From contig OY762492.1 of assembly GCA_963665845.2 (NCBI GenBank), positions 544,001 to 608,000 on the forward strand: a DNA stretch of 64,000 bases. Direction: 5' to 3'. Every line of letters starts with the position of its first letter. The first letter of the stretch is position 1. The notes under the pieces are model-generated. The model was not told where the DNA came from and searched no databases. It saw nothing but the letters and a program-made list of their open reading frames with translations. Positions 22,828 to 26,194 of the stretch are shown here, piece after piece. Made by a program: the position numbers and the translations under genes. Source of the DNA: Candidatus Poribacteria bacterium. GTDB taxonomy: Bacteria; Poribacteria; WGA-4E; GCA-2687025.

Positions 22828-24015
22828 TTACGCCAGCGCCTTGGCGATCCGCTTTACGCCTTCCTCAATCGTCTCCGCCGACGCCGCAAACGACAGGCGA
22901 ATGCATCGGTCGTCCCCGAACGCGCCGCCCGGAACGACCGCCGTCTGAACCGCCTCCAAAAGATAATCGGCGAGATCGAAGGAGCTTTCGATCCGCTTGC
23001 CGCCCAGCTCCCGCCCGTAATGCGCCGAGACGTTCGGGAACACATAAAACGCCCCCTGCGGACGCGCATAGGTGACGCCCTCGATGCCGTCCAGCAGCCC
23101 GCAGATCAGATCGCGCCGCTCTTGAAACGCTTCGCGCATGACGGCGACCGCGTCCTGCGGTCCGGTCAACGCTTCCAGCGCCGCTTTCTGCGCGATGGAG
23201 GTCGGGTTGGAGGTGCTGTGGCTCTGAATGCCCGCCATCGCCTTGACAAGAGACGCCGGACCGACCGTCCAGCCGACGCGCCAGCCCGTCATGGAGTAGG
23301 TCTTGGAGACGGCGTTGAAAATGACCGTCAGCGACTCCATCCCAGGACGCAGCGCCGCAAGGCTGTAAAACGGCAGATTGTCAAAAACCAGCTCATCGTA
23401 AATCTCGTCCGCGACAACATACAGATCATGTTCCAGCGCCAGCTCCGCCAGCGCTTCCAGCCGTTCCAGCGAATACATGGTGCCGGTCGGGTTGCTGGGG
23501 CTGTTGACGATGAACGCCTTCGTTCGGTCGGTTACGGCGGCGCGGGCGGCGTCCGGCGAGAGGGTGTAATTGTCCGCCTCCTCCGTCTCCACGACGACCG
23601 GGACGCCCCCCGCCAGTTTCACCATCTCGGTGTAGCTGACCCAGTAAGGCGCGGCGATGATCACCTCGTCGCCAGGGTCGCAGACGGCTTGAAAAAAGTT
23701 GTAAAGGGCATGCTTGCCGCCGCATGAGATCAGCACGTTTTCGGCGGCGTAATCGATGCCGTGCGTTTTTTGGAACCGCGCGGCGACCGCGTTTTTCAGC
23801 TCAACGGTTCCGGAAGCGGGGGTGTATTTGGTGAAGCCCGCGTCCAGCGCGTCTTTGGCGGCGTCTTTGATGTTGTCGGGCGTGTCAAAATCAGGCTCGC
23901 CCGCTCCAAAACCGATCACATCCAGCCCCTCGGCTTGCATCGCTTTCGCTTTGGCGCTGATGGCGAGCGTCGCCGAGGGGGTGACTCCCTGCGCCCGTTT
24001 CGATAATGCTTTGAT
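22828..24015 (-). CDS. aspC: Class I PLP-dependent (aspartate) aminotransferase
   Basis: GEPDFDTP, NSPSNPTG, DEIY and SKTYSMTGWRVG. Conserved N-terminus extends to an ATC codon at 24015. Confidence 0.9.
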   Translation of the reverse strand: MKALSKRAQGVTPSATLAISAKAKAMQAEGLDVIGFGAGEPDFDTPDNIKDAAKDALDAGFTKYTPASGTVELKNAVAARFQKTHGIDYAAENVLISCGGKHALYNFFQAVCDPGDEVIIAAPYWVSYTEMVKLAGGVPVVVETEEADNYTLSPDAARAAVTDRTKAFIVNSPSNPTGTMYSLERLEALAELALEHDLYVVADEIYDELVFDNLPFYSLAALRPGMESLTVIFNAVSKTYSMTGWRVGWTVGPASLVKAMAGIQSHSTSNPTSIAQKAALEALTGPQDAVAVMREAFQERRDLICGLLDGIEGVTYARPQGAFYVFPNVSAHYGRELGGKRIESSFDLADYLLEAVQTAVVPGGAFGDDRCIRLSFAASAETIEEGVKRIAKALA

Positions 24016-24062: not shown

Positions 24063-24230
24063 CTGACCGCATGTCTAAAATTGGGACAGCTGAACGACCA
24101 AAGCCTTTATTCATGGGAAAAAGGCGTTGCCGACCAGTTCGTCATTCCCGCGTAAGCGGGAATCTAGGGGCGCCTTAGAGGCAGTCCGCGTTCGCCTTCC
24201 GACATGTCCCAACTAAAGACGTAAGGTCAG
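24063..24230 (+). mobile_element. 168-bp MITE inserted in the aspC 5' region
   Basis: CTGACC...GGTCAG TIRs, with ataaa on both flanks. Confidence 0.88.
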
Positions 24231-24235
24231 ATAAA

Positions 24236-24264
24236 ACGCTAACGCGCGCGGCGGCGAAGGTCAA
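24236..24264 (-). promoter_or_regulatory. Putative aspC promoter
   Basis: Minus strand TTGACC-17 nt-TAGCGT. Confidence 0.5.
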
Positions 24265-24265
24265 T

Positions 24266-24300
24266 AAAAAATCCCCTGCCCGTAGCGGAGGGGAGGGGAT
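24266..24300 (-). terminator. Intrinsic terminator
   Basis: AUCCCCUCCCC-loop-GGGCAGGGGAU followed by UUUUU. Confidence 0.8.
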
Positions 24301-24349
24301 CAAACAAACCAAGGTTTCCACGAAGGAAACCAACTAGAAAGGAGATTAC
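24266..24349 (-). ncRNA. Candidate ~85-nt sRNA with anti-SD seed
   Basis: Own promoter, 5' UCUCCUUUCU, GGUUUCC/GGAAACC hairpin, terminator hairpin plus U run, no meaningful ORF. Confidence 0.6.
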
Positions 24350-24354
24350 GGTTG

Positions 24355-24383
24355 AGCATACATGGGCTTGGGGCGGGAGTCAA
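24355..24383 (-). promoter_or_regulatory. Sigma70 promoter of the candidate sRNA
   Basis: TTGACT-17 nt-TATGCT. Confidence 0.7.
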
Positions 24384-24606: not shown

Positions 24607-25560
24607 ATGATGGAATCTAGCGAAACGGTCAAGGACAGAGCAGTCAACTGTATTTTGACGGGCGACGCCAGGGATCATATTCCCGGTCTGCCTCCTGTTG
24701 ACTTGAGTTTCTGGTCGCCTCCTTACTATGTCGGCAAATCCTATGAGCATGATTGGACATTTAACGACTGGCAAACTTTATTGCGGGATGTGATCGCTCT
24801 GCATGCGGACGCGGTCAAGCCTGGCGGATTTATGGTAGTGAACATTGGAGACATCCTCTGCTTTGCCGATCCCGCGATGCCGCGATTCCAGGCTGATAAT
24901 GTTCGCCGAAAGAGATGCCCCGTAACGAGGGAAGACGTTCTTGCGGCGATGGCTGAAAATCCAGACTGGAACCGATACCAGATCGCGGCGTTTCTTGGCT
25001 GCTCCGAGCAGACTGTCCAAAGGCGGCTTGAAGGCAACAATGTTCGGGGAGGCAAAAACGGAGTCCAGACGCGAGTCCTGTTGACAGGCCATATGGTATG
25101 CGAGTGGGCAACCAATACAGGCTTCTACCTGTATGATCGGCGCATCTGGCACAAGGATCCCTGTTGGGCGAACAGCCGCTGGCACTCGAATTCCTACCGG
25201 GCGGTAGACGAGTTTGAGTACATCTATGTTTTTTGGCGTCCTGGGGTTGTGAAGTACGACCGCGAACGCCTGGACGCCGAAGAATGGGCGCAATGGGGGT
25301 CGCGCGGAGTATGGTCCATTCCCTCGGTGCCGCGCAATGATCGGCACGAAGCCGAATTCCCCGAAGAATTGGCAAGGCGCGTGATCCTTTTATTTTCGCC
25401 TCATGCCGGAACCGTGTTGGACCCGTTTGTTGGAAGCGGAACGACCACCTCGGTTGCCCGCCGTCTAGGGCGCGAGTGGATCGGAATAGATAGGGACCCC
25501 AAGAGCGCCTGCATCGCAGAACGGCGAACGATGCAAGAACGGAATAATTGTGCATCCTGA
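24607..25560 (+). CDS. Beta-class N4-cytosine/N6-adenine DNA methyltransferase
   Basis: SPPY precedes HEAEFP and DPFVGSGTT. Confidence 0.92.
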   Translation: MMESSETVKDRAVNCILTGDARDHIPGLPPVDLSFWSPPYYVGKSYEHDWTFNDWQTLLRDVIALHADAVKPGGFMVVNIGDILCFADPAMPRFQADNVRRKRCPVTREDVLAAMAENPDWNRYQIAAFLGCSEQTVQRRLEGNNVRGGKNGVQTRVLLTGHMVCEWATNTGFYLYDRRIWHKDPCWANSRWHSNSYRAVDEFEYIYVFWRPGVVKYDRERLDAEEWAQWGSRGVWSIPSVPRNDRHEAEFPEELARRVILLFSPHAGTVLDPFVGSGTTTSVARRLGREWIGIDRDPKSACIAERRTMQERNNCAS

Positions 25561-26194
25561 CCGCATAGAACTTCTGGAGCGCGCAGCGCTGTCTCTCGTA
25601 GTTCAGGCGTTAAAAGATTATCGCACCACAGCCGCGACGATTTTTCGTGAAGAAACAGATGAGCCGCAAGACATTGCGGAGGATGTGACCCGAGAGGCGC
25701 TGGAGGAAATGGGAGTCTCAGGAATTAAGGAGCGGCTATACGGCAAGGTGGACGTGAAGAAGGCCATCTACCTCTTCCTCCCTGAAGTTCAACCCGTCGC
25801 GCTCATGCTTGACGCCAAGGCCGAAAAAGGCGACGAGCGTTCTGCCACGATACAGATGTCCCAAACATCCATGCGGGTTCGAATGTACCGCAAGGGTCAG
25901 GCGATAGACGAGGCAGGCAAACTGGATACGGTTATCAGACGGGGAAATCGCGATCTTGTTGTTGTGACGATCGTGGCAAAGTACCTCTACCAAGAACCTG
26001 GCGCTCTGAAAAAGATCATCGTTGCCTGCATTCCGAACGGCCTCCTCCAGAATCGATATAATCCCACCGCGGACGACACAATCTGGCGGATTGGTCGAGA
26101 CGCGCCCACGCTAGGCGAGGATTTTCGGGTTCGGCTCAGCTATCCGAAGCTCCGCCATAAGGCTGAGTGGCGGGTAGTTGAGGTGATCGTATGA
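25550..26194 (+). CDS. SfiI/BglI-like type II restriction endonuclease
   Basis: EDVTREAL, RLYGKVDVK, LDAKAEK, IQMSQTSM and GEDFRVR resemble the SfiI family. Overlaps the MTase gene. Confidence 0.75.
   Translation: MHPDRIELLERAALSLVVQALKDYRTTAATIFREETDEPQDIAEDVTREALEEMGVSGIKERLYGKVDVKKAIYLFLPEVQPVALMLDAKAEKGDERSATIQMSQTSMRVRMYRKGQAIDEAGKLDTVIRRGNRDLVVVTIVAKYLYQEPGALKKIIVACIPNGLLQNRYNPTADDTIWRIGRDAPTLGEDFRVRLSYPKLRHKAEWRVVEVIV

What the first reader, a model, noticed from the sequence alone, without database searches (positions are those of the whole stretch)
24266..24383. Unannotated small RNA gene with an anti-Shine-Dalgarno seed
Seen on the minus strand: TTGACT-17-TATGCT promoter, then about 85 nt reading GUAAUCUCCUUUCUAGUU-GGUUUCC(UUCGU)GGAAACC-UUGGUUUGUUUG-terminator-UUUUU. 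It is non-coding, pyrimidine-rich and not part of the repeat families. The 5' UCUCCUUUCU is complementary to AGAAAGGAGA-type RBSs, and the neighbouring aspC RBS (AGAAAGG) matches 7 nt. Known: CU-rich seeds of trans-acting sRNAs block RBSs. Inference: a novel riboregulator, or an antitoxin or attenuator-like RNA, beside an ATC-start gene and the R-M locus.
Basis: partly seen in the sequence, partly recalled or inferred. Interest (0 to 1): 0.7.

Follow-up and report, generated by a model that had tools for sequence, protein, structure and literature searches.

The report
Genus-specific anti-Shine-Dalgarno RNA of Poribacteria
An 82-base non-coding stretch with promoter and terminator motifs is almost unchanged between two species of one Poribacteria genus; it is likely a small RNA gene whose open 5' end, a copy of the ribosome's mRNA-docking tail, would block translation starts, but no transcript or specific target has been shown.

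Summary
On the minus strand lie TTGACT-17-TATGCT, a pyrimidine 5' tail, a 7-bp hairpin, a U/G linker and a terminator with six U (fold z -3.4). No Rfam family reaches threshold.

The host is a Ca. Poribacteria genome. One homologue exists, in the only other same-genus genome searched, again just upstream of aspC. It shows 1 substitution and 1 indel in 82 nt, against 17-30% change at nearby 4-fold sites. Both promoter hexamers are kept while 6 of 17 spacer bases change, so it is very likely a selected small RNA gene.

The tail shares 11 nt with the 16S 3' end and complements the genome's commonest Shine-Dalgarno. The aspC match is therefore ordinary (rank 1287 of 3109), and aspC has its own promoter motif. 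Hfq, ProQ and CsrA were not found; KhpA/B were.

No conserved target emerged. The two best in this genome, a coiled-coil gene leader (19 bp, p about 0.01-0.05) and the adjacent methyltransferase, were not found in the relative. Expression is unshown.

The parts
24378..24383 (-). -35 hexamer TTGACT
   Evidence: identical in G001, where it overlaps the stop codon of the upstream gene
24355..24360 (-). -10 hexamer TATGCT, 17-nt spacer
   Evidence: identical in G001 while 6 of 17 spacer bases differ
24266..24349 (-). predicted small RNA, about 82-84 nt (start inferred at the purine 24349 or 24347; end in the U tract)
   Evidence: 1 substitution and 1 indel over 82 columns against G001
24334..24349 (-). 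5' tail; nt 24345-24336 (UCUCCUUUCU) complement the AGAAAGGAGA Shine-Dalgarno; 24344-24334 is identical to 11 nt at the 16S rRNA gene's 3' end
   Evidence: first 12 nt predicted mostly unpaired
24313..24331 (-). hairpin 1, 7 bp, 5-nt loop UUCGU (UUCAU in G001; YUNR in both)
   Evidence: YUNR definition
24301..24312 (-). U/G-rich single-stranded linker, invariant in G001
24266..24300 (-). intrinsic-terminator-like hairpin and U tract; hairpin invariant in G001
   Evidence: only 1 of 17 comparable long terminator-like hairpins is invariant
24236..24264 (-). separate promoter motif for aspC, TTGACC-17-TAGCGT (context, not part of the RNA)
   Evidence: same position class as TTGACT-17-TACCGT before aspC in two family members; listed by the anatomy scan
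24063..24231 (.). about 170-bp high-copy repeat inserted in the aspC leader, absent in G001 (context)
22828..24015 (-). aspC-type class I/II aminotransferase with inferred ATC start (context)
24607..26194 (+). divergent N4/N6 methyltransferase plus SfiI-like nuclease (context; not at this place in G001)

Best explanation
This is likely a stand-alone small RNA gene of one Poribacteria genus, and its RNA is predicted to act in trans, without Hfq, by pairing its open 5' tail with strong Shine-Dalgarno sequences so that it would block ribosome loading on a set of mRNAs. Shown: the anatomy, the conservation, and the tail's identity to the 16S 3' end. Inferred: transcription from the sigma-70-type promoter, termination at the U tract, pairing with mRNAs, extra specificity from the linker or the hairpin loop, and help from KhpA/B. 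The target set is probably several mRNAs rather than one.
For: Selection: 1 substitution and 1 indel in 82 nt, against 21.5% at 4-fold sites and 13.5% at non-coding sites over 2.08 Mb aligned. Locally the 4-fold rates are 16.7% in aspC and 29.5% in the polymerase gene, so P(<=1 of 81) is 7e-6 or less. The flanks have diverged, which argues against a recent shared tract. The promoter pattern, hexamers 0 of 12 changed and spacer 6 of 17, is that of 103 other promoter-like sites (5.5% against 17.4%). The tail is open and complements the commonest upstream 8-mers (GAAAGGAG in 93 of 3110 called genes). The 10-mer AGAAAGGAGA occurs 17 times, 12 of them 3-12 nt before a called start. Precedent for Hfq-independent anti-SD seeds: NfeR1 (PMC10746234, passages) and RsaE/RoxS (PMC6158497, passages). 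KhpA/B-family genes are present in 2 of 2 genomes.
Against: No expression data. Only two sequences, so no covariation. 42 of 437 non-coding regions have an 82-nt window this well kept, though these include tRNA, rRNA, SRP and RNase P-like stretches. No shared target stands out among 1597 orthologous start regions. A seed equal to the 16S tail has little specificity. The terminator hairpin is invariant too, which 5'-tail pairing alone does not explain. Gene starts came from my own caller, which used SD strength, so the SD counts are biased upward.
Confidence: 0.55

Rival explanations
1. Decoy of the 16S 3' tail. The RNA is made but binds a protein (a ribosomal protein, an assembly factor or a nuclease that recognises the anti-SD) instead of pairing with mRNAs.
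For: 11 nt are identical to the 16S gene's 3' end, running into the AG after it. The whole RNA, terminator included, is near-invariant. No conserved mRNA target was found.
Against: The identity stops at CTCCTTTCTAG and the bases 5' of it differ from 16S. Any anti-SD seed resembles 16S by construction. No candidate protein was identified.
Confidence: 0.13
2. Hairpin-loop antisense RNA, antitoxin-like, against a small coiled-coil membrane-protein family. The YUNR loop kisses the SD-containing leader and the stem unzips into a 19-bp duplex.
For: RNA nt 20-38 form an unbroken 19-bp helix (2 G-U) with the leader of a 134-aa gene at G000:C1:977988. It is the best helix among the called start regions; shuffles reach it in 2 of 300, 3 of 300 and 9 of 200 trials. 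Two paralogues share the 13-nt core. The one loop change (G/A) keeps YUNR and keeps pairing to U.
Against: The family was not found in G001 (91% complete), which keeps the RNA. The two paralogues break the helix. Counting structure, the three rank 185, 27 and 261 of 3110. G001 has its own unrelated 20-bp match, so such matches can arise by chance. Toxicity is untested, and the Pfam CCDC90-like scores are below cut-off.
Confidence: 0.12
3. Not a functional RNA: a relic plus-strand 5' leader, a DNA operator (palindrome GGTTTCC-N5-GGAAACC), or a short coding frame.
For: The plus strand reads like a strong leader with AGAAAGGAGA. A minus-strand frame is open in both genomes, and the loop change is also GTG/ATG.
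Against: The plus-strand start is not conserved: ATG lies 3 nt after AAAGGAG in G001 (usual 5-8) and is ACG here, and the TTG here is TAA there. The palindrome has 1 perfect site and no enrichment at spacing 5. The minus frame has no SD, crosses the terminator, and shows no silent change before it. Relics are not kept this well.
Confidence: 0.08
4. Cis attenuator or leader for aspC: read-through RNA lets the 5' tail fold back on the aspC SD.
For: It lies directly upstream of aspC, on the same strand, in 2 of 2 genomes. In G001 the read-through MFE pairs the tail with the aspC SD.
Against: aspC has its own promoter motif after the terminator. No structure within 2.5 kcal/mol among the 12 shown opens the terminator, and the nascent RNA does not trap its 5' arm. 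A 170-bp insert separates them here. Three family members have aspC without the element. No riboswitch match.
Confidence: 0.07
5. Dedicated repressor of the neighbouring methyltransferase of the R-M pair.
For: That gene's start region ranks 1, 1, 1 and 2 of about 3110 by net cofold energy in four window settings.
Against: It is a generically sticky start region (rank 6 of 3109 for strong SD and little structure), and linker shuffles still rank it first in 8 of 45 trials. Part of the pairing lies in or upstream of its likely -10 box. The gene was not found in G001, whose neighbouring mod gene does not pair (-3.7). There is no model match beside 25 other SfiI-like loci.
Confidence: 0.05

Closest known systems
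NfeR1 / alpha-r14 sRNAs of Alphaproteobacteria (PMC10746234, passages read)
   Same: Hfq-independent, short, anti-SD seed in unpaired regions, blocks ribosome-binding sites in trans.
   Different: NfeR1 is 123 nt with three hairpins, each carrying CCUCCUCCC. This RNA has one UCUCCUUUCU in a 5' tail, and no Rfam match.
RsaE / RoxS of Firmicutes (PMC6158497, passages read)
   Same: Pyrimidine-rich seed that pairs with SD sequences, without need for Hfq.
   Different: RsaE has two repeated C-rich motifs and duplexes cut by RNase III. Here there is a single tail, and no RNase III family match in 2 of 2 genomes.
YUNR-loop antisense RNAs of plasmids and type I toxin-antitoxin loci (PMC4485353, passages read)
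   Same: 5' single-stranded tail plus a hairpin with a YUNR loop plus a terminator.
   Different: No overlapping or adjacent gene is fully complementary; the best long match is in trans and not conserved.
Rfam anti-hemB (RF02837) and NsiR1 (RF02399)
   Same: Similar outline: pyrimidine 5' end, hairpin, U/G linker, C-rich terminator.
   Different: 16.9 bits against a 49.5 cut-off and 20.7 against 39 (E 0.69 and 0.35); the NsiR1 alignment rests mostly on the terminator.

Membership tests
trans-acting base-pairing sRNA (general class) | own promoter and terminator, non-coding | tested here: met
   motifs present and conserved; no conserved, SD-led frame
trans-acting base-pairing sRNA (general class) | discrete transcript | not testable with these tools
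   only contig-level RNA runs of related strains were served
trans-acting base-pairing sRNA (general class) | conserved, accessible seed with conserved targets | tested here: inconclusive
   seed accessible and invariant; no outstanding target among 1597 orthologous start regions
alpha-r14 / NfeR1 | three hairpins each with CCUCCUCCC unpaired | tested here: not met
RsaE / RoxS | Rfam match and duplicated C-rich motifs | tested here: not met
Hfq-dependent class I sRNA | Hfq encoded by the host | tested here: not met
   PF17209 found in 0 of 8 family genomes (61-95% complete)
type I antitoxin | long complementarity to an overlapping or adjacent small toxin gene | tested here: not met
   neighbours are aspC and R-M genes; the best helix is in trans and not conserved
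riboswitch / transcription attenuator | terminator-antiterminator switch ahead of a promoterless gene | tested here: not met
any Rfam 15 family | score at the gathering threshold | tested here: not met
   6 matches up to E 10 in 1.7 kb, best E 0.35, none at threshold

The most novel reading that the evidence does not exclude
The RNA is not aimed at one regulon. It is an antisense image of this lineage's generic strong translation start (the AGAAAGGAGA SD plus the A/C-rich stretch before it) and acts as a chaperone-light brake on newly acquired genes with strong, open SDs. Its best matches here are such genes: the adjacent R-M methyltransferase, coiled-coil genes beside methylase-HNH genes, two IS110-like transposases and an expanded secreted-protein family. 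That would be an RNA-level silencer of foreign or over-expressed genes. The support is thin: the real linker binds 200 strong-SD start regions better than 37 of 40 shuffled linkers, only about 1 sd above the mean.
Probability: 0.12. Interest if true: 0.75.

Novelty: new member of a known kind. Interest (0 to 1): 0.4.

Why it matters
Poribacteria are uncultured, and I found no paper on their small RNAs (listings only). A tRNA-level-conserved, anti-SD RNA in a genus where Hfq, ProQ, CsrA and RNase III were not found, but KhpA/B were, is a compact test case for how sRNA regulation works without the usual helpers. Because its seed equals the 16S tail, it also bears on how such RNAs get specificity. 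The kind of RNA is well known, the family is narrow (2 genomes), and no target is established, which limits the interest.

Tried and rejected
Homologue searches. BLAST over 61 genomes found only G001. The covariance model found only G000 and G001 in 61 genomes; four hits at E 0.05-0.36 lacked the anatomy. The model over 8 family genomes gave 2 of 8. A pattern over 176 phylum genomes gave 10 matches: 2 are the element and 8 are ordinary SDs read backwards. Metagenome patterns gave 0 and 1 match, the latter in an unrelated AT-rich contig and scoring only 11.5 bits. Viral patterns gave 0, and 97 matches to a 15-mer that I took as chance and did not examine. Plasmid and phage BLAST gave none.

Expression. 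The RNA-run contigs X1 and X2 come from related strains and do not cover the element. This says nothing either way for an 82-nt RNA. DNA runs X3-X5 hold it with no differences and may be the source material.

Other readings. No CRISPR-like array turned up in my repeat scan, so a CRISPR-derived RNA was dropped. It is not a stand-in for SRP, which lies elsewhere. No 6S match exists in the genome, and this RNA does not have a 6S-like fold. Methyltransferase genes as a class are not enriched among top targets (32 genes with spread ranks). Leaders of 24 related coiled-coil genes in other Poribacteria do not share the motif. The protein atlas could not be used for the coiled-coil protein, so its family rests on weak Pfam scores only. 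Supplements of the papers were not consulted.

Full report
Observation. The minus strand at 24383-24266 reads as reported: TTGACT, 17 nt, TATGCT, then after 5 nt a pyrimidine tail, a 7-bp hairpin, a U/G linker, a bulged C/G-rich hairpin and six T. The promoter is one of 3 found in 2.6 kb against 0.8 in shuffles. The RNA folds at -28.7 kcal/mol, z -3.37. Rfam gives nothing at threshold; the best E is 0.35. A scan for the same anatomy found it at 10 of 210 non-coding promoter-like sites, a set that also holds a tRNA pair.

Host and context. The nearest aspC relative (97% identical) is a Ca. Poribacteria record. The element lies between aspC, downstream on the same strand, and a divergent methyltransferase with an SfiI-like nuclease. 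High-copy repeats flank it on both sides.

Conservation. Among 61 genomes, BLAST and a two-sequence covariance model found one homologue, in G001, the only other same-genus genome held. It sits again just upstream of aspC. Upstream of its -35 box lies a different, type III-like mod/res pair (named from the translations, not from a family scan), whose stop codon overlaps the box. Over the 82 core columns there is 1 substitution and 1 indel. The hexamers are unchanged while 6 of 17 spacer bases differ. I aligned 2.35 Mb of G001 (of about 3.6 Mb) to this genome; 2.08 Mb aligned, with 21.5% change at 4-fold sites and 13.5% at non-coding sites. Locally the rates are 16.7% (aspC) and 29.5% (polymerase gene), giving P of 7e-6 or less for so few substitutions. 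For balance, 42 of 437 non-coding regions have some window this well kept, many of them known structural RNAs or probably uncalled genes. Terminator-like hairpins normally drift (13% in stems, 19% in loops; 1 of 17 long ones invariant), so the invariant terminator here suggests more than termination. With two sequences there is no covariation.

The seed. The 16S gene ends in CCTCCTTTCTAG, so 11 nt of the tail are identical to it. The commonest 8-mers before called genes are GAAAGGAG, GAAAGGAA and AGAAAGGA. The tail is therefore the complement of the lineage's standard SD. That makes the aspC match unremarkable: rank 1287 of 3109. The full 10-mer occurs 17 times, 12 of them at SD position, ahead of mixed genes that include two IS110-like transposases and three secreted-protein paralogues (names from my reading of the sequences). 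My gene starts were chosen partly by SD strength, so these counts lean high.

Not a leader of aspC. A second promoter motif, TTGACC-17-TAGCGT, begins right after the U tract. Family members that lack the element have a similar motif at a similar distance from aspC. No antiterminator fold appears. The tail can fold back on the aspC SD in a G001 read-through transcript, so a minor cis effect is not excluded.

Target search. First lead: the whole first hairpin forms a 19-bp helix with the SD-containing leader of a 134-aa coiled-coil protein with a hydrophobic C-terminus. Shuffle controls reach that value in 2 of 300, 3 of 300 and 9 of 200 trials. The loop is YUNR in both species, a motif of antisense recognition loops (PMC4485353, passages). 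Against it: the family was not found in G001, two paralogues break the helix, net energy ranks it 185 of 3110, and G001 has an unrelated 20-bp match of its own. Second lead: the adjacent methyltransferase ranks first or second by net energy. It is a generically open, strong SD, shuffled linkers rank it first in 8 of 45 trials, and it was not found in G001. Comparing 1597 orthologous start regions gave a smooth list of strong-SD genes with no outlier.

Helpers. Hfq was found in 0 of 8 family genomes, and CsrA and ProQ in 0 of 5 genomes each. KhpA/B-family genes are present in 2 of 2. No RNase III family match was found in 2 of 2 genomes, both about 90% complete.

Expression. The two RNA runs served are contigs of related strains, so they give no verdict.

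Comparison. It most likely works like NfeR1 or RsaE/RoxS, Hfq-independent RNAs that cover SD sequences (PMC10746234 and PMC6158497, passages), but it fails membership of both. Two literature searches listed no paper on Poribacteria small RNAs; I saw listings only. The scan's index holds no look-alike sequence. It holds an unchecked note of a sigma-54-driven anti-SD RNA in another Poribacteria genome, which I could not compare by sequence.

Verdict. A real, selected, uncatalogued small-RNA-like gene confined so far to one genus. It is probably an anti-SD trans regulator (0.55). Targets and expression are open. New member of a known kind; interest 0.4.

Noticed in passing
window 24013-24015 (minus); G000:C1:2089083 (minus) and 2953339 (plus): aspC appears to start at ATC here and ATA in G001, where three family members have ATG at the aligned codon. 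A scan found 6 candidate ATC/ATA starts behind good SDs; two others keep ATC in G001, one a cysE-like gene by my reading.
   Followed up: partly
G000:C1:366468-367000 (L158): About 500 nt of non-coding, strongly conserved sequence with apparent hairpins and no Rfam match; possibly a large uncatalogued RNA. The genome also has no 6S match.
   Followed up: partly
window upstream of 24383 and L031:5598-9816: Both species carry a restriction-modification locus directly upstream of this RNA's promoter, but of different types, which suggests an R-M exchange hotspot.
   Followed up: partly
G000:C1:977988, 1981002, 2281761: Three paralogous small coiled-coil genes with a hydrophobic C-terminus share a conserved promoter and leader, and each lies within about 1 kb of a methylase-HNH fusion gene. 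They were not found in the 7 other family genomes; distant relatives occur in 16 other Poribacteria genomes.
   Followed up: partly
G000 and G001, whole genomes: No RNase III family match (PF14622) in either genome, while 8 of 14 controls have one.
   Followed up: no
G000:C1, 46 loci: An expanded family of about 365-aa secreted proteins (46 BLAST hits), often in tandem and most with strong GAAAGGAG-type SDs.
   Followed up: no
G000:C1:1570175 (plus) and 1049738 (minus): Two further promoter-to-terminator non-coding leaders: one T-box-like before an ileS-like gene, one riboswitch-like. Both labels are recalled, not from a family scan.
   Followed up: no
window 24063-24231: A MITE-like repeat of about 170 bp is inserted between the aspC promoter motif and its RBS, flanked by ATAAA on both sides, and is absent in G001.
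   Followed up: partly
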